A DNA stretch of 5,857 nucleotides from a virus (Duplodnaviria > Heunggongvirae > Uroviricota > Caudoviricetes): positions 1 to 5,857 of the IMG/VR virus record IMGVR_UViG_3300028995_000024. One strand, written 5' to 3'. The notes below the pieces were generated by a model. It had not been told where the DNA came from and ran no database searches. It was given only the letters and a program-made list of their open reading frames with translations. The first letter of the stretch is position 1. Each line of letters starts with the position of its first letter. Below are positions 1-4,580 of the stretch, in pieces. Position numbers and translations under genes: made by a program.

Positions 1-911
1 CGAAAAAGGCTTCGTCTAACAACAATTCCTTTAGTGCGATTTACAAGGAATGGTACGAGCACAAGAAGCAAGTCTGGTCAGTAGGATATGCGACTGAACT
101 TGCCAAAATGTTTGATGACGACATTTTGCCCATCATCGGCGGTCTTGAGATTCAGGATATTGAGCCGATGCAACTGCTGGAAGTAATCCGCAGATTTGAA
201 GATCGCGGTGCAATGGAGCGAGCAAATAAAGCCCGCAGAAGATGCGGCGAGGTTTTCCGTTACGCTATTGTCACTGGTAGGGCTAAATATAACCCGGCAC
301 CTGACCTTGCTGACGCCATGAAGGGATACCGCAAGAAGAACTTCCCGTTTTTACCTGCCGACCAGATCCCGGCATTCAACAAAGCACTTGCAACATTTTC
401 AGGAAGTATCGTATCGCTCATTGCGACCAAAGTTTTACGCTACACAGCCCTAAGAACGAAAGAGCTTCGTTCCATGCAATGGAAGAACGTCGATTTTGAA
501 AACAGGATTATCACCATCGACGCCAGTGTGATGAAGGGACGCAAAATTCATGTGGTCCCGATGTCAGACCAGGTGGTTGAACTTCTCACTACGCTAAGCT
601 CAATCACCAAACCAGTATCAGAGTTTGTTTTTGCCGGGCGCAACGATAAGAAGAAGCCAATCTGCGAGAACGCGGTATTGCTTGTGATCAAACAAATCGG
701 CTATGAGGGTCTGGAAAGCGGTCATGGATTCAGGCATGAATTCAGCACAATTATGAACGAGCACGAATGGCCTGCTGACGCTATTGAAGTGCAACTGGCA
801 CATGCCAACGGCGGATCTGTGCGTGGTATTTACAACCATGCTCAGTATCTCGATAAACGCAGAGAAATGATGCAATGGTGGGCGGACTGGCTTGAGGAGA
901 AGGTATCATAG
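1..911 (+). CDS. int: Tyrosine site-specific integrase (phage/P4-like family), 5'-partial; the N-terminus lies upstream of the window
   Basis: The reading frame is open from the window edge (first full codon at nt 3) to TAG at 909-911. Translation upstream of the ORF-track ATG at 108 stays open (...KKASSNNNSFSAIYKEWYEHKKQVWSVGYATELAK-MFDDD...), so that ATG is internal. Catalytic-domain signatures of tyrosine recombinases are present: LRTKELR (box I Arg), HGFRHEF (H-x-x-R box II) and RGIYNHAQYL (catalytic Tyr), ending in MMQWWADWL. Confidence 0.9.
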   Translation, partial: KKASSNNNSFSAIYKEWYEHKKQVWSVGYATELAKMFDDDILPIIGGLEIQDIEPMQLLEVIRRFEDRGAMERANKARRRCGEVFRYAIVTGRAKYNPAPDLADAMKGYRKKNFPFLPADQIPAFNKALATFSGSIVSLIATKVLRYTALRTKELRSMQWKNVDFENRIITIDASVMKGRKIHVVPMSDQVVELLTTLSSITKPVSEFVFAGRNDKKKPICENAVLLVIKQIGYEGLESGHGFRHEFSTIMNEHEWPADAIEVQLAHANGGSVRGIYNHAQYLDKRREMMQWWADWLEEKVS

Positions 912-920
912 GTAAACAGC

Positions 921-946
921 GCAAAGACTTGCAAACCTATGCAAAG
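921..946. repeat. Three direct hexamer repeats, GCAAAG / GCAAAC / GCAAAG, at exact 10-bp phasing just downstream of the int stop codon
   Basis: Read directly from the sequence: 921 gcaaagactt, 931 gcaaacctat, 941 gcaaagcttt. One helical turn between copies is consistent with a same-face protein-binding array. Function is unknown. Confidence 0.3.
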
Positions 947-1059
947 CTTTGTGTGTCCAGTTTTTGTCTCACGCATACAGCTTGAGATGCTAACTGGTCG
1001 ATCATCCAAGCTCTTAGTGGTAGACTCACCGCACACTTTTATCAGCGATTAATCATGAA

Positions 1060-1242
1060 ATGAAACTATCACTTGATAACCTCGTCCGCTTTGCTTCTTT
1101 AATGTGCGTAGCTGGCCTTCTAACTGGTTACCGTTCAAGATATCCATCACTACAGGTGATAGAGATACTCATGCTGGCGGTTTGGCTGCATCAGGACTAT
1201 CCTCACATCAAGAGCATCATAGAAAATAATAAAAAACAATAA
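1060..1242 (+). CDS. Hypothetical small protein (60 aa), doubtful; possibly a small membrane peptide or gene remnant upstream of the acyltransferase
   Basis: ATG-initiated ORF in the int-acyltransferase intergenic region with two short hydrophobic stretches (FASLMCVAGLLTG, VIEILMLAVWL). I recognise no family and see no convincing ribosome-binding site. It lies in the same orientation as, and 17 bp upstream of, the acyltransferase gene. Confidence 0.2.
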   Translation: MKLSLDNLVRFASLMCVAGLLTGYRSRYPSLQVIEILMLAVWLHQDYPHIKSIIENNKKQ

Positions 1243-1259: not shown

Positions 1260-2327
1260 ATGAATAGCAAAATTTTATCAGTGCATTACATGAGGGCTTT
1301 GGCCTCCATCGCGGTGTTAATAGATCATTTCTCAGGTCTATTGGTTATCAATGGGAATCCAATTCCATTTTTATCGAGAGGTGGATTTGGAGTAGATCTT
1401 TTCTACATTATTAGTGGATTTATCATCTACATTTCGTCAGGAAACAAAGATAATAACAAACCTATAAAATTCATACTAAAGCGATTTTTCAGAATTTATC
1501 CATTATTCATCGTTGCATGGATAATAGGGATGTCATTTGTGTTCAAGAGTGACAGCGTATGGTCATTTTTAGAGCCGCTACTATTGGTATATCAAAATTA
1601 TAATGGAATGGCCCCTCAGTTCGGTACCCATGTTATGGGAACCCCATGGACACTGGCTTACGAACTACTCTTTTACGCAATTTTTGTTTTAGCTATTTCA
1701 ATAACTCACAAGCACCGGGCGGCATTATCAATAGCGATACTGATCCTAATGCCGATATCACTACAACTAATATTCAACGATTCATTCTCCATTCAGAGTT
1801 CTGCATTTGCCAATGCAAGTAAAGACATTCCTATGTATGGAGTAATTAGAATGGCAAGTGGAACAATAATGTTTGAGTTTGCTATAGGAATTTTATTAGG
1901 TGTTTCCTTCAAGAAAATGAAGAAGATTGATATAACACAAAGCGCATCTACGTTATTCTTCTATTCTGGGGTAATGATATCTATTGCAATACTTATTACC
2001 AACGGAAATCAGATTTCTAAATTTGGTTTGCAAGGCTATTTCATTCCGTCAATTGTTCTTTTTATATCGTTTTTCTTCAGGGATAAAACATCAAATATAA
2101 AACACAATGGATTCCTGGAGTTCTTCGGAAATATTTCATACTCGCTGTACATCACACATTTCATAATTTATGTATGGATAGTTCAGCATCTTGACAGGGT
2201 ATGGATGGAACCGGTTAGGGGGTACCCTATAGTTATTATCGGAATGGTTGCAAGCATTATATTCTCTTGGTGTTGTTATGTCTTTGTAGAGAAACCATTC
2301 ATAAAAGTCGGCAAGCGATATTTATAA
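1260..2327 (+). CDS. Acyltransferase family 3 integral membrane protein (Oac/OafA-like carbohydrate O-acyltransferase); candidate O-antigen/LPS O-acetyltransferase
   Basis: 355-aa ORF that is hydrophobic throughout, with about 10 predicted transmembrane segments. Family-typical motifs are present: N-terminal R-x-L-A-x-I-A-V-x-x-x-H (RALASIAVLIDHF), GVDLFYIISGF, KRFFRIYPLF, WTLAYELLFY and C-terminal GNISYSLYITHF. A weak AGGT ribosome-binding site lies ~5 nt before the ATG. The gene is markedly AT-rich (about 25-35% G+C in sampled lines) against ~47% in int and ~55-60% in the tail genes. Confidence 0.85.
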   Translation: MNSKILSVHYMRALASIAVLIDHFSGLLVINGNPIPFLSRGGFGVDLFYIISGFIIYISSGNKDNNKPIKFILKRFFRIYPLFIVAWIIGMSFVFKSDSVWSFLEPLLLVYQNYNGMAPQFGTHVMGTPWTLAYELLFYAIFVLAISITHKHRAALSIAILILMPISLQLIFNDSFSIQSSAFANASKDIPMYGVIRMASGTIMFEFAIGILLGVSFKKMKKIDITQSASTLFFYSGVMISIAILITNGNQISKFGLQGYFIPSIVLFISFFFRDKTSNIKHNGFLEFFGNISYSLYITHFIIYVWIVQHLDRVWMEPVRGYPIVIIGMVASIIFSWCCYVFVEKPFIKVGKRYL

Positions 2328-2347
2328 AAATAGCGTCCATAAGGACT

Positions 2348-2379
2348 AATGCCAGTCAGTTAAGCAACTGACTGGCATT
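2348..2379 (+). terminator. Perfect 14-bp inverted repeat with 4-nt loop (AATGCCAGTCAGTT-aagc-AACTGACTGGCATT) 21 bp after the acyltransferase stop; possible terminator or RNA 3' stability hairpin
   Basis: The two arms are exact reverse complements, read directly. No U-tract follows (the next bases are acggcaatcagg), so it is not a canonical intrinsic terminator. The call rests on position and stem strength only. Confidence 0.35.
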
Positions 2380-2435
2380 ACGGCAATCAGGAGGGATATC
2401 CGATTTTGACAGAGCAACCATCTTTATCAAAATAA

Positions 2436-2663
2436 AACCTTATTGCATTGGCGGATTTGAAAAAAAGAAAACTTATTAATGAAGCCAACGAGCACATGAA
2501 CAGAAGACAATGGCCTGGTAAAGCGGCCATTGGTCGTCTGAAAGGTGAGAAACTGGCGCAATATAATTTGTGGCTGGATTATCTGGACGCACTGGAACTG
2601 GTTGATACCTCCAGTGCTCCAGATATTGAATGGCCTACGCCTCCGGCAGTTCAGGCCAGATGA
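2436..2663 (+). pseudogene. Tail-fibre assembly protein (Tfa/Mu-U family), C-terminal ~75-codon fragment, 5'-truncated
   Basis: The frame opens immediately after a TAA at 2433-2435 and has no in-frame ATG; the ORF track starts it at a TTG at 2448. The translation ends ...KLAQYNLWLDYLDALELVDTSSAPDIEWPTPPAVQAR, the characteristic Tfa C-terminus (DTSxAPDxxWP). The sequence upstream is unrelated and AT-rich, so the N-terminal part of the gene is missing. Confidence 0.7.
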
Positions 2664-3228
2664 CATCCGGCGCGGTGCTGGTATCTGTTGCCGTCACCGC
2701 GTCAATGTAATCCAGCACGGCGTTAAGTCGGGTGGTCTCTGCCTGCATCAGCTTCCGCCCGGCCTGTAATTTCAGCTGAATCAGACTAATGGAAGCCATT
2801 GCTGCATCAATCAGTGACTGGCGCTGTGCTTCCGCCACTTCTACTACGGCACCGTGTTGTGCCTCAGTATCTGTCACCCATTTCTCACCATCCCATTCAT
2901 CGTATGGTGTTAACGGTGAAAGCGTGACATAATCGTCTTTGATGGCACCGATATAATCCACTGTAACAGCTGCACCATTTTCTGTTGAGTAAACAGTCTC
3001 ATTGCGATGGTCTTCTTCATGGCTCCATCCCTTACCCGTAAATACTGCCACTTTCCCCGGAATGTTTTCGCCAGGGTCAATACCAGTGGAACAGGCGGGC
3101 ATACTTACGCCAGTATTAATATATTCATCAGACCAGCCAGTATATTCATACGTTACTGCATCATAATAAAAACAACGCATATCGCCCGGCACTGTAGCCA
3201 GCCCATTTTCATCAAAAACAGGTTTCAT
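2635..3228 (-). CDS. tfa: Tail-fibre assembly protein (Tfa/Mu-U/lambda-Tfa family)
   Basis: 197-aa ORF whose C-terminus ...RLNAVLDYIDAVTATDTSTAPDVIWPELPEA matches the Tfa family signature. Its ATG (3228..3226) overlaps the stop of the upstream tail-fibre gene as TAATG, indicating translational coupling. It lies immediately 3' of a tail-fibre gene, as expected for this family. Confidence 0.85.
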   Translation of the reverse strand: MKPVFDENGLATVPGDMRCFYYDAVTYEYTGWSDEYINTGVSMPACSTGIDPGENIPGKVAVFTGKGWSHEEDHRNETVYSTENGAAVTVDYIGAIKDDYVTLSPLTPYDEWDGEKWVTDTEAQHGAVVEVAEAQRQSLIDAAMASISLIQLKLQAGRKLMQAETTRLNAVLDYIDAVTATDTSTAPDVIWPELPEA

Positions 3229-3992
3229 TATTTAGCCCTCACCAGAAAGTTAAACGCGATATTACGAGGACGTGTTTCACTTGCAGTTTTCGTTTCAATG
3301 GCACTATCAATAGAGAAATGCTGCAAATCCTGAGATGCAGCACCGTAATTGGTGTAAGAATTAACAAGTGCACCCGCTTTTATTGAGCCAGAGCTACCCA
3401 TAGCTCCCCCCATGAAATTCCCTGTTATACGCTGCTGAGCAAAGTCCTGTGCGCTTAACAACGTGCGACCACCGTCTACACCTCGCCCGTCATCCCAGAT
3501 ACGAATGAAATCACCGCGGGCTTCAGGTAATACCAGCGAAGGAAACACTTTCGCCAGCACAGGATAATCAGAAGCAGAAAATTTCGCCCCGTTGAACTTC
3601 AAAAACACCATACTGGACCAGCTGCCGATTACAGTATTTGGCATTGCAGCGGACGGCCATAAGAACGGAACGCCAATAGCTGGAGCACCTTCTCCCAAAC
3701 CAAGGTTTTCGAGAGCTGTTTTCACCGTACCATCCGATTTGATATCGCCAAACGGATTATTGCGGCTTAACAGCAGCGCACGAAGCGCGGTAAGCAGCTG
3801 GTCGTGCCGCGTCTTCTCAAGACTGGCACCGGATGCCTCCACCACGCTGCAAAGCTCCTCCTGCAACATGTCAAAGTAGTCATCATCCAGAGCGGTGGCA
3901 GGTGTGCCGGTCTGGGGGTTACCACGGGTAAAACCGTTCTTACCCGCGCCGAACTTATCCTTCTGCGCGGTTTTCGTGTCTATACGATGCAT
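3228..3992 (-). CDS. stf: Phage tail-fibre protein (short side tail fibre; conserved N-terminal anchor region plus C-terminal collar-like receptor-binding region)
   Basis: 254-aa ORF. The N-terminus [14 protein letters not shown]...[27 protein letters not shown] resembles the conserved N-terminal region of enterobacterial prophage tail fibres. The C-terminal part contains a motif like the phage tail-collar domain ([33 protein letters not shown]). It sits between a gp48-like baseplate gene and tfa. Confidence 0.8.
3690..3715. other. Candidate DNA-invertase crossover site (hix/gix/pix-like 26-bp dyad) inside the tail-fibre gene
   Basis: TTCTCCCAAACC-AA-GGTTTTCGAGAG consists of two 12-bp half-sites around a 2-bp AA core. 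The left half and the reverse complement of the right half (CTCTCGAAAACC) agree at 9 of 12 positions. Compare hixL TTCTTGAAAACC-AA-GGTTTTTGATAA and gix TTCCTGTAAACC-GA-GGTTTTGGATAA, both recalled from memory. The site encodes residues ~93-101 ([10 protein letters not shown]) of the tail fibre, which is where a constant/variable boundary would be expected. Confidence 0.5.
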
Positions 3993-3995
3993 GGA

Positions 3996-4580
3996 TTACT
4001 CCGGATATTTAAAAATTACGTAGGTATCCCACGGGCAGAGTTTGTTAAGCACGCACTCGACAACGGTGTCCCCCCAGATACGCAGCGCAGAATCACAGGG
4101 ATCGCCACATGTCATCCAGGTGGTGTTGGTGGCGGCTGGCATGTTGACCTGCCAGTAATACCGCCATTCCGGCGCATTCACCGCGTCAGTACAGACCGAT
4201 GAGCAGGTGAACGTGCTTTTGTCGTATCGCGTGATGTTGGCATCTGGTCTGCCCAGGGCAGCAAGCTGTGCAAGATAAAAATTCTCGTTGATGCTGCCCG
4301 CCAGGTTAACCTTCGCATCCAGCCGTTGCTGACGCTGACGAAGGGTCTTTGTCCCTGCGGGAATACATTCATCCGGCAGACCGCACAGACGCTCCCAGCG
4401 GTTTATCAGTTCAGTGGTGGTGCGCGGATCCAGCTCCCGCATCAGGGCATCCGCACGCTGATGAACACGGGTTAATGACGGTGCCGCACCGGCAATCGCC
4501 GGATCGCTGGCTGATCACGCCGGACCGGGGGGCAACAGTGCCGACAACAGACGGATGTAATCATCGTTTGTCACGTCCAT
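3996..4580 (-). pseudogene. Mu gp48-like / DUF2313 (YmfQ-like) baseplate-associated tail protein, interrupted by an in-frame TGA at 4517..4515
   Basis: The ORF track reports only 3996..4442 (148 aa, [26 protein letters not shown]...). The same frame continues upstream for 24 codons ([24 protein letters not shown]) to a TGA. A further 21 codons upstream (MDVTNDDYIRLLSALLPPGPA) start at an ATG at 4580..4578, which has a GGGGA ribosome-binding site ~7 nt upstream and overlaps the stop of the upstream gene. An intact gene would be 194 codons. From memory of the family, the position holding TGA normally holds Trp (TGG) in an LLPPGxAW motif. Confidence 0.7.

What the first reader, a model, noticed from the sequence alone, without database searches (positions are those of the whole stretch)
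2436..2670. Convergent tail-fibre assembly genes with overlapping 3' ends; the plus-strand copy is a 5'-truncated remnant
The intact minus-strand tfa ends at 2635 and a plus-strand Tfa C-terminal fragment ends at 2663. The final 29 bp are therefore read on both strands, each encoding the conserved W-P-x-x-P tail (...DIEWPTPPAVQAR* on plus, ...DVIWPELPEA* on minus). This head-to-head U/U' arrangement is the centre of a G-segment-type invertible cassette. The plus-strand copy has lost its N-terminal part and its partner fibre gene; its frame opens right after a TAA at 2433-2435, next to unrelated AT-rich DNA. This marks where the alternative fibre half, and presumably the invertase, were lost, possibly when the acyltransferase module was acquired.
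Basis: partly seen in the sequence, partly recalled or inferred. Interest (0 to 1): 0.5.

Follow-up and report, generated by a model that had tools for sequence, protein, structure and literature searches.

The report
Decayed invertible tail-fibre cassette with IS4 scar
This is the leftover half of a phage "flip-switch" for tail fibres in a decaying E. coli prophage: ordinary and already annotated as a pseudogene, with one small new detail, that an IS4 insertion sequence apparently cut the switch and left a 34-bp scar.

Summary
An intact 197-aa tail-fibre assembly gene (2635-3228, minus) and a plus-strand Tfa C-terminal fragment ending at 2663 overlap by 29 bp. The fragment matches Pfam Caudo_TAP positions 64-130 of 131 (E 6e-18).

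Intact relatives have pinE, Sv', a 139-aa tfa, a convergent tfa and the fibre gene, with two inverted 26-bp crossover sites. The window keeps only the site inside its fibre gene (3690-3715). It has no invertase and no Sv'. It is therefore a frozen relic of an e14 P-segment-type (Gin/Pin) cassette, in a prophage at argW.

- The remnant starts at 2381, not 2436. The TAA at 2433-2435 is a GAA>TAA substitution inside it.
- The junction is a 34-bp perfect palindrome (2347-2380) made of the two termini of IS4. Homology to the acyltransferase module, as found in Salmonella P22-like prophages, stops at its left edge inside that module's terminator hairpin. Homology to tfa starts at its right edge, at a sequence fitting the IS4 target pattern. 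I infer an IS4-mediated deletion followed by collapse of IS4.

K-12 CPS-53 (tfaS/yfdK) is the same cassette frozen in the opposite orientation and truncated independently. Ordinary; low interest.

The parts
1..911 (+). 3' part of intS, the prophage integrase at tRNA-Arg argW. The gene starts upstream of the window.
   Evidence: Pfam Phage_integrase and Phage_int_M. RefSeq annotation of the 100% identical locus, argW followed by intS.
921..971 (.). Conserved 51-bp segment at the left border of the cargo slot. Function unknown.
   Evidence: blastn identity of 94% to Salmonella P22-like prophages, 88% to Enterobacter and 82% to K-12 CPS-53.
1060..1242 (+). 60-aa hydrophobic ORF preceding the acyltransferase.
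   Evidence: ORF list. A 60-aa ORF sits in the same position in the Enterobacter loci.
1260..2327 (+). Acyltransferase (Acyl_transf_3), AT-rich cargo gene (moron). Probably modifies a surface polysaccharide; this is inferred.
   Evidence: PF01757, E 3.4e-29. GC 0.32-0.40 against 0.47-0.61 in the phage genes. Homologues of 92% aa identity lie next to the tailspike gene in Salmonella P22-like prophages.
2329..2346 (+). Left part of the module's own terminator hairpin (AATAGCGTCC-ATAA-GGAC), cut off after GGAC.
   Evidence: The Salmonella copies carry the complete hairpin ATAAAATATAGCGTCC-TTAT-GGACGCTATATTTTAT. Homology to them ends exactly at 2346.
2347..2380 (.). IS4 scar: a perfect 34-bp palindrome, TAATGCCAGTCAGTTAAGCAACTGACTGGCATTA.
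   Evidence: The first 30 nt are identical to the transposase-distal terminus of IS4. The last 4 nt equal the last 4 nt of the other terminus. 15-bp stem, -28 kcal/mol. The exact 34-mer occurs in only 5 of 5426 E. coli genomes and one metagenome contig, always at this junction.
2381..2663 (+). Remnant of the second tail-fibre assembly gene (U', TfaP/YfdK type): codons 47-139 of a 139-aa protein, with an in-frame TAA at 2433-2435.
   Evidence: 95% nt identity to L002 4999-5281. Pfam Caudo_TAP 64-130/131. 7 synonymous and 8 non-synonymous codon differences, including GAA>TAA. Protein alignment with YfdK and TfaP.
2635..2663 (.). 29-bp stretch that is coding on both strands, the 3' ends of the two convergent tfa genes.
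   Evidence: The same 29-bp overlap is seen.
2635..3228 (-). Intact tail-fibre assembly gene (U, TfaE type, 197 aa).
   Evidence: Full-length Caudo_TAP. 93% aa identity to the L002 orthologue. The K-12 tfaS pseudogene is its truncated orthologue (86% aa identity).
3228..3992 (-). Tail-fibre gene (254 aa): constant N-terminal part joined to a variable part at the crossover site.
   Evidence: ORF list. Alignment to the L002 fibre gene is about 95% identical except for the last ~75 codons.
3690..3715 (.). The single surviving 26-bp invertase crossover site, TTCTCCCAAACCAAGGTTTTCGAGAG.
   Evidence: Identical to the site inside e14 stfP and inside the L002 fibre gene. The partner site, TTCTCCCAAACCAACGTTTATGAAAA, is found only in the loci that carry a pin gene, intact or truncated (L002, L003, e14).
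3996..4580 (-). YmfQ / Mu gp48-like baseplate gene with an internal stop (pseudogene).
   Evidence: PF10076. The annotation notes an 'internal stop'. The gene is intact in strain Yu5.

Best explanation
The 2436-2670 region is the dead centre of an e14 P-segment-type (Gin/Pin/Cin family) invertible tail-fibre cassette. It sits in a decaying Mu-like-tailed prophage integrated at argW.

In the working form of the cassette, a serine invertase swaps two alternative 'variable fibre end + assembly chaperone' sets behind a constant fibre N-terminus. It does so by recombining two inverted 26-bp sites. The two chaperone genes converge and share their last 29 bp.

Here the cassette is frozen with the TfaE-type set expressed (fibre 3228-3992, tfa 2635-3228). 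Of the silent set only codons 47-139 of the TfaP/YfdK-type chaperone survive (2381-2663), now carrying a nonsense codon. The first 46 codons, the alternative fibre end, the second crossover site and the invertase are gone, so inversion is impossible.

Inferred mechanism of the loss:
1. IS4 prefers targets made of an A-run followed by a hairpin, typically terminators. It inserted into the terminator hairpin of the neighbouring acyltransferase cargo gene.
2. An IS4-mediated adjacent deletion into a matching target in tfa removed everything in between. The alternative is recombination with a second IS4 copy sitting in that target.
3. IS4 itself later collapsed to a 34-bp palindromic scar that keeps both of its outer ends.

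What is shown: the homologies, the breakpoints, the identity of the scar, the single remaining site and the absence of an invertase. What is inferred: the order of events and the involvement of the transposase.
For: Tfa identity of both ORFs.

Intact relatives with pinE, Sv', a 139-aa tfa, a 197-aa tfa and the fibre gene, plus inverted sites. Homology to the intact tfa begins at 2381/2383, and the TAA is a point change. There is only one crossover site in 17.9 kb around the window, and no pinE or Sv' homologue there.

IS4 scar: 30/30 nt plus ATTA match the IS4 termini.

Left break: homology to the Salmonella module (85% nt over 1205-2346) stops exactly at 2346, inside a 17-bp terminator hairpin that is uninterrupted in Salmonella.

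Right break: in the intact tfa the breakpoint has the IS4 target signature (AAAA, then a 2-4 nt spacer, then a duplication starting with C). All 8 full IS4 copies examined have this signature. Only 11 of 1406 positions (0.8%) on that strand of the pinE-to-tfa region fit it.

The flanks of the scar are not a target duplication (9/13 identical), as expected after a deletion.

A diverged copy of the prophage (Yu5, 97% identical, less decayed) and a metagenome contig share the identical junction and the TAA, so this was a single event.

K-12 CPS-53 has the same cassette in the opposite orientation with the other chaperone truncated. Other argW prophages carry remnants of 129, 58, 54 or about 0 nt and never a pin gene. 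This shows repeated independent erosion of this end.
Against: No genome or metagenome contig was found with a full-length IS4 at either junction, so the intermediate is hypothetical.

The IS4 target test rests on only 8 sites and a simple pattern.

No argW prophage with an intact cassette was found. The pin-Sv' part may therefore never have been present next to this particular acyltransferase; the truncated block could have been imported already truncated.

Inversion ability was not tested experimentally.

The collapse of IS4 to 34 bp is assumed by analogy to Tn10 'nearly precise excision', which I cite from general knowledge and did not test.
Confidence: 0.85

Rival explanations
1. One reading: the acyltransferase module was inserted by illegitimate recombination. 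That single event removed the invertase, Sv' and the 5' part of tfa, with the breakpoint at the TAA (2433-2435).
For: The AT-rich module lies immediately upstream. The plus-strand frame does open after the TAA.
Against: Homology to tfa continues 53-55 nt upstream of the TAA, and the TAA is GAA in the intact allele. A 34-bp IS4 terminal scar separates the module from the remnant, and both homology breaks sit at its edges.
Confidence: 0.07
2. One-step import: the acyltransferase module, carrying an IS4 in its terminator, recombined with an IS4 already sitting in tfa, with the other crossover at the intS / 51-bp linker side. Acquisition of the cargo and loss of the invertase half would then be the same event.
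For: It predicts the same junctions as the best explanation. A conserved 51-bp segment (921-971) flanks the cargo slot in unrelated prophages and could serve as the left crossover point. The cargo is highly variable among argW prophages.
Against: No IS4-bearing donor or recipient was found. Three of the chromosomes that carry the scar have no other IS4 end.
Confidence: 0.25
3. The plus-strand ORF (TTG 2448-2663, 71 aa) is a functional short Tfa-like protein kept by selection, not a pseudogene.
For: Its last ~50 residues are almost invariant among TfaP/YfdK-type proteins. A promoter-like match lies at 2406-2433.
Against: It lacks the first half of the domain. It carries a nonsense change, and 8 of 15 codon differences are non-synonymous. 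I see no Shine-Dalgarno sequence before the TTG in the sequence itself. Promoter-like hits are at the level expected by chance (10 found against 7.6 expected). Sister prophages with an intact partner tfa have reduced the remnant to 129, 58, 54 or about 0 nt. The 3' conservation is explained by the overlap with the intact gene and by the recency of the event.
Confidence: 0.03
4. The 34-bp palindrome is simply the intrinsic terminator of the acyltransferase gene, and its resemblance to IS4 is coincidental.
For: It is a very stable hairpin directly downstream of the gene.
Against: It is 30/30 identical to the IS4 terminus, including the terminal inverted repeat. No T-run follows it, and the terminator scan does not report it. 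The module's real terminator is a different hairpin, which is interrupted here.
Confidence: 0.01

Closest known systems
e14 P segment of E. coli K-12 (pinE-stfE-tfaE / tfaP-stfP; 1797-bp invertible segment)
   Same: The gene types and order are the same. The convergent tfa genes overlap by the same 29 bp. The 26-bp site inside the fibre gene is identical. The window's intact tfa is of the TfaE type and its remnant of the TfaP type. Inversion of e14 by PinE, PinQ and PinR is documented in PMC12529663.
   Different: The window has no invertase, no second crossover site and no alternative fibre end. One chaperone gene is truncated and carries a nonsense codon. The locus is at argW next to intS and a cargo gene, not at icd.
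CPS-53 / KplE1 cryptic prophage of E. coli K-12 (intS-gtrABS-yodE-tfaS'-yfdK-yfdL')
   Same: The integration site (argW) and the intS gene are the same. A cargo slot lies between the integrase and the fibre genes. There is a truncated tfa converging on an intact tfa with a 29-bp overlap, a single crossover site and no pin gene. KplE1 is described in PMC2951348.
   Different: The orientation is opposite. In K-12 the TfaE-type gene is the truncated one (tfaS) and the YfdK/TfaP-type gene is intact. The cargo (gtrABS) and the breakpoint differ (303-nt remnant), and there is no IS4 scar.
Mu G segment / P1 C segment (Gin and Cin systems)
   Same: From general knowledge: the logic is the same. A constant fibre N-terminus, two alternative Sv-U sets in head-to-head arrangement, and a Fis-dependent serine invertase acting on about 26-bp sites with a central dinucleotide.
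   Different: I did not compare their sequences here. Those systems are functional; this one is a relic.
Nearly precise excision of Tn10/IS10 (short palindromic remnant left at the site)
   Same: From general knowledge: an IS4-family element is reduced to a short palindrome built from its terminal repeats by deletion between short repeats. The 34-bp scar keeps both outer ends of IS4. A GGC microhomology at the deletion point can be read from the sequence.
   Different: The element is different (IS4) and the remnant is 34 bp. The process was not observed, only its presumed product. The flanks are not a target duplication.
O-antigen-modifying cargo between the integrase/att end and the tail genes (Sf6 oac, P22 gtrABC)
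   Same: An Acyl_transf_3 gene lies in the slot between the int/att end and the tail fibre or tailspike genes. That Sf6 oac and P22 gtrABC occupy this position is from general knowledge.
   Different: The substrate and function of this acyltransferase are untested. It is only distantly related to acyltransferases in sequenced phages (31% aa identity or less).

Membership tests
Gin/Pin/Cin-type invertible tail-fibre segment | A serine invertase gene adjacent to the segment | tested here: not met
   There is no recombinase among the window ORFs or their Pfam hits. blastn with pinE from the intact relative finds nothing in the 17.9-kb locus L001. The annotation lists none.
Gin/Pin/Cin-type invertible tail-fibre segment | Two inverted ~26-bp crossover sites bracketing the segment | tested here: not met
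   There is only one site (3690-3715). A scan allowing up to 4 mismatches finds no second copy in the window or in L001. Intact loci have two.
Gin/Pin/Cin-type invertible tail-fibre segment | A crossover site inside the fibre gene, joining the constant N-terminus to a variable C-terminus | tested here: met
   The site lies inside ORF 3228-3992, about 95 codons from its start. It is identical to the site inside e14 stfP.
Gin/Pin/Cin-type invertible tail-fibre segment | Two alternative Sv-U sets in convergent arrangement | tested here: not met
   One complete set is present (fibre plus tfa). Of the other set only the 3' 283 nt of tfa remain, and no Sv' homologue is found.
Gin/Pin/Cin-type invertible tail-fibre segment | Both orientations occur | tested here: inconclusive
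   Across lineages both orientations exist, frozen (window against K-12 CPS-53). Inversion within these strains cannot be tested with assemblies.
Caudo_TAP (PF02413) tail-fibre assembly proteins | A match above the Pfam gathering score | tested here: met
   Remnant: 65.8 bits. Intact gene: 93.2 bits. Cut-off: 22.1 bits.
Caudo_TAP (PF02413) tail-fibre assembly proteins | A complete, uninterrupted coding sequence (plus-strand copy) | tested here: not met
   It covers profile positions 64-130 only. It lacks codons 1-46 of the intact 139-aa allele and has an in-frame TAA.
IS4 (IS4 family, IS4 subgroup) | The terminal inverted repeats of IS4 | tested here: met
   30/30 nt match one terminus and 4/4 nt match the other.
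IS4 (IS4 family, IS4 subgroup) | A transposase gene and a full length of 1426 bp | tested here: not met
   Only 34 bp remain.
IS4 (IS4 family, IS4 subgroup) | A 10-13 bp target-site duplication | tested here: not met
   The flanking 13-mers match at 9/13 positions only. Full copies have perfect 12-13 bp duplications. The 10-13 bp range is given in PMC2266710.
Acyl_transf_3 cargo gene (phage-borne surface-polysaccharide acyltransferase) | The PF01757 domain and a position between the int/att end and the tail genes of a prophage | tested here: met
Acyl_transf_3 cargo gene (phage-borne surface-polysaccharide acyltransferase) | Acetylation of O-antigen | not testable with these tools
   Needs chemical analysis of LPS from wild type and a knock-out.

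The most novel reading that the evidence does not exclude
IS4 targets A-run-plus-hairpin terminators. Landing behind a phage cargo gene, it both froze a phase-variable tail-fibre switch (by adjacent deletion) and then self-destructed into a 34-bp perfect palindrome that now stands where the cargo gene's terminator was. If so, this would be a natural example of IS4 'nearly precise excision', and of IS-driven turnover of the integrase-proximal cargo slot in argW prophages.
Probability: 0.45. Interest if true: 0.3.

Novelty: already known. Interest (0 to 1): 0.15.

Why it matters
It matters little beyond correct annotation. The locus should be read as a frozen, non-invertible relic of a Pin-type tail-fibre switch in a decaying prophage. 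The short plus-strand ORF should not be called a gene.

Two small points are of some use:
- The breakpoint analysis shows how an insertion sequence with a taste for terminators can remodel the cargo slot next to a prophage integrase and disable host-range switching.
- The comparison with K-12 shows that the same cassette was frozen in both orientations in different E. coli lineages. This is indirect evidence that it once inverted in this prophage family.

Tried and rejected
- I searched for the predicted intermediate, a full IS4 joined to tfa at 2381. A chimeric IS4-end/tfa query against 5426 complete E. coli genomes found no contiguous match. An exact junction pattern found nothing in metagenome contigs. 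The left-junction pattern found nothing in GTDB species representatives. In metagenomes it found only one contig, which carries the same scar.
- I tested whether the 34-mer is a dispersed miniature element. It is absent from the GTDB representatives. In E. coli it occurs only at this junction, in 5 genomes; the other roughly 4870 matching places are 30-nt ends of IS4. Rejected.
- I considered the palindrome as an intrinsic terminator. No T-run follows it and the terminator scan does not report it. Rejected.
- I considered the flanks of the scar as a decayed target duplication. They match at 9/13 while the remnant is 95% identical to the intact allele, which is too divergent. The resemblance is explained by IS4's target preference, seen in 8 of 8 copies.
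- I considered a functional 71-aa ORF. Rejected; see the rival explanations.
- I searched sequenced phages for the acyltransferase. Only distant hits were found (31% aa identity or less).
- I looked for an argW prophage that still has pin. None was found among the seven loci inspected. This was not exhaustive.

Full report
**Origin and context.** The window is 100% identical to a stretch of the E. coli strain 300033 chromosome. Four other complete E. coli records hold the whole window at 97-100% identity. The annotated locus reads as follows: tRNA-Arg (argW), intS, an acyltransferase, a tfa pseudogene ('missing N-terminus'), tfa, a 254-aa fibre protein, a YmfQ pseudogene, baseplate J, gp46, then further Mu-like tail genes, several of which are pseudogenes. 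It is therefore a decaying Mu-like-tailed prophage in the CPS-53/KplE1 integration site.

**The observation.**
- ORF 2635-3228 (minus, 197 aa) is a complete Caudo_TAP protein (E 1.9e-26).
- The plus-strand frame 2436-2663 matches the C-terminal half of the same Pfam family (positions 64-130 of 131, E 5.7e-18).
- The stop codons at 2635-2637 and 2661-2663 give a 29-bp stretch that is coding on both strands.
- The same 29-bp overlap is present in e14 tfaP/tfaE, K-12 CPS-53 tfaS/yfdK, an intact E. coli relative, another argW prophage and phage vB_EcoM-606R2.
- The overlap is thus a fixed property of this cassette type, not chance.

**What the intact form looks like.** In strain 2011C-4315 (locus L002) the homologous region reads, in order:
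- pinE (serine recombinase);
- a 132-aa gp53-like fibre end (Sv');
- a 139-aa tfa;
- a convergent 197-aa tfa;
- a 248-aa fibre gene;
- ymfQ.

Two inverted copies of a crossover site bracket an approximately 1.8-kb segment. One copy lies inside the fibre gene and the other at the start of Sv'. K-12 e14 has the same layout and the same sites. Its 1797-bp P segment is experimentally inverted by PinE, PinQ and PinR (PMC12529663).

The window retains only the fibre-internal site, TTCTCCCAAACCAAGGTTTTCGAGAG, at 3690-3715. Neither pinE nor Sv' has any homologue in the 17.9-kb locus. The cassette can no longer invert.

**The true 5' limit of the remnant.** Alignment with the intact 139-aa gene shows homology (95% nt) from window 2381/2383 to 2663. 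This corresponds to codons 47-139. It is a nonsense substitution inside the remnant. Of 15 codon differences, 8 are non-synonymous. That fits relaxed constraint, although the numbers are small.

**The junction.** Immediately upstream of the remnant lies a perfect 34-bp palindrome (2347-2380).
- Its first 30 nt are identical to the transposase-distal terminus of IS4, including the terminal inverted repeat and an inner hairpin.
- Its last four nt (ATTA) are the last four of the other IS4 terminus.
- A deletion of IS4 positions 31-1422 across a GGC microhomology would produce exactly this sequence. This can be read. It resembles 'nearly precise excision' of Tn10, which I cite from general knowledge.

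**The left edge of the scar.** The acyltransferase has homologues of 92% aa identity in Salmonella P22-like prophages, where the gene sits next to the tailspike gene. It also has homologues of 75-78% identity in Enterobacter.
- Nucleotide homology to the Salmonella module (85%) runs from 1205 to exactly 2346.
- In Salmonella the gene is followed by an uninterrupted 17-bp hairpin flanked by an A-run and a T-run.
- In the window this hairpin is cut after GGAC, precisely where the IS4 sequence begins.

**IS4 target preference.** Eight full IS4 copies from different sites are all 1426 bp long with perfect 12-13 bp duplications. All eight sit in the same kind of target: an A-run, a spacer of 2-4 nt, then a duplication that begins with C, usually within a hairpin. 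The A-run is always on the side of the transposase-distal end.
- The window's left flank (AAAAA-TAG-CGTCCATAAGGAC) fits this pattern.
- So does the tfa breakpoint in the intact allele (AAAA-TAGT-CAGCAATCAGGAG).
- Only 11 of 1406 positions (0.8%) on that strand of the pinE-to-tfa region fit it.
- The literature notes 'spectacular apparent insertion specificity' and 10-13 bp repeats for this IS4 subgroup (PMC2266710).
- The two flanks of the scar are not a duplication (9/13), as expected if the DNA between two IS4 target positions was removed.

**Inferred history.**
1. IS4 inserted into the cargo gene's terminator.
2. Either intramolecular transposition into the tfa target, or recombination with a second IS4 copy already there, deleted the first 46 codons of tfa, Sv', the second crossover site and pin.
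3. IS4 then collapsed to 34 bp.

The exact 34-mer exists only at this junction: in five E. coli records and one metagenome contig. These include strain Yu5, whose prophage is 97% identical and less decayed but has the identical junction and the same TAA. This was therefore a single event, older than the tail-gene pseudogenisation seen in the window strain. The full-IS4 intermediate was not found, so this step remains an inference.

**Comparison within the argW prophage family.** The slot between intS and the fibre genes is highly variable. It holds gtrABS in K-12, at least four different acyltransferases, a hypothetical gene, or nothing. The remnant of the second tfa measures 303, 283, 129, 58, 54 or about 0 nt, and none of the seven loci inspected has pin.

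In K-12 CPS-53 the roles of the two chaperones are exchanged. The pseudogene tfaS is the orthologue of the window's intact 197-aa tfa (86% aa identity). The intact yfdK is the orthologue of the window's remnant. The same cassette has thus been frozen in opposite orientations and truncated independently. This is indirect evidence that it did invert in ancestors of this family.

**Verdict.** Two things needed correction.
- The remnant's boundary is at 2381, not 2436.
- The cause of the loss appears to be an IS4 element at the module's terminator, not the acquisition of the acyltransferase as such.

The structure is a known kind. It is already annotated as a pseudogene and has a textbook parallel in K-12 (tfaS). 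The IS4 scar and the opposite frozen orientations are minor additions. Interest is low.

Noticed in passing
window 921-971: A 51-bp segment just downstream of intS is conserved at the left border of the cargo slot in unrelated prophages: 94% identical in Salmonella P22-like prophages (next to a tRNA/att end), 88% in Enterobacter and 82% in K-12 CPS-53. It may be a cargo-gene promoter or a boundary sequence used for module exchange.
   Followed up: partly
window 1060-1242 (+): A 60-aa hydrophobic ORF precedes the acyltransferase. A 60-aa ORF sits in the same position in the Enterobacter loci (L018-L021, 7812-7994). The Salmonella copies have no gene called there, and their sequence does not align with this stretch. 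Function unknown.
   Followed up: no
window 3996-4580 (-): The YmfQ / Mu gp48-like baseplate gene has an internal stop, so the ORF list shows only 148 aa (3996-4442). Several other tail genes downstream in L001 are also pseudogenes. The same genes are intact in strain Yu5.
   Followed up: partly
window ~3231-3460 (-), C-terminal ~75 codons of the fibre gene: The fibre tip is unrelated to that of the otherwise ~95% identical relative L002. This looks like mosaic exchange of the presumed receptor-binding end.
   Followed up: no
L004, L005, L010-L015 (full IS4 copies): All eight IS4 copies examined sit in A-run-plus-hairpin (terminator-like) targets with 12-13 bp duplications. The A-run is always on the transposase-distal side. 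This is a strong, oriented target preference.
   Followed up: partly
L006 5304-6563 (K-12 CPS-53 tfaS-yfdK-yfdL): K-12 carries the same cassette frozen in the opposite orientation to the window, with the other chaperone gene truncated.
   Followed up: yes
protein P0007: A 406-aa database protein combines an Acyl_transf_3 part (98% identical to the window's enzyme over 53% of it) with integrase domains. It is probably a fusion call or a rearranged int-acyltransferase junction in another strain.
   Followed up: no
chromosomes of strains 300033, 300444 and CB209: In these chromosomes the scar is the only match to the IS4 terminus, so they appear to carry no other IS4 end. Strain Yu5 has one additional copy.
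   Followed up: partly
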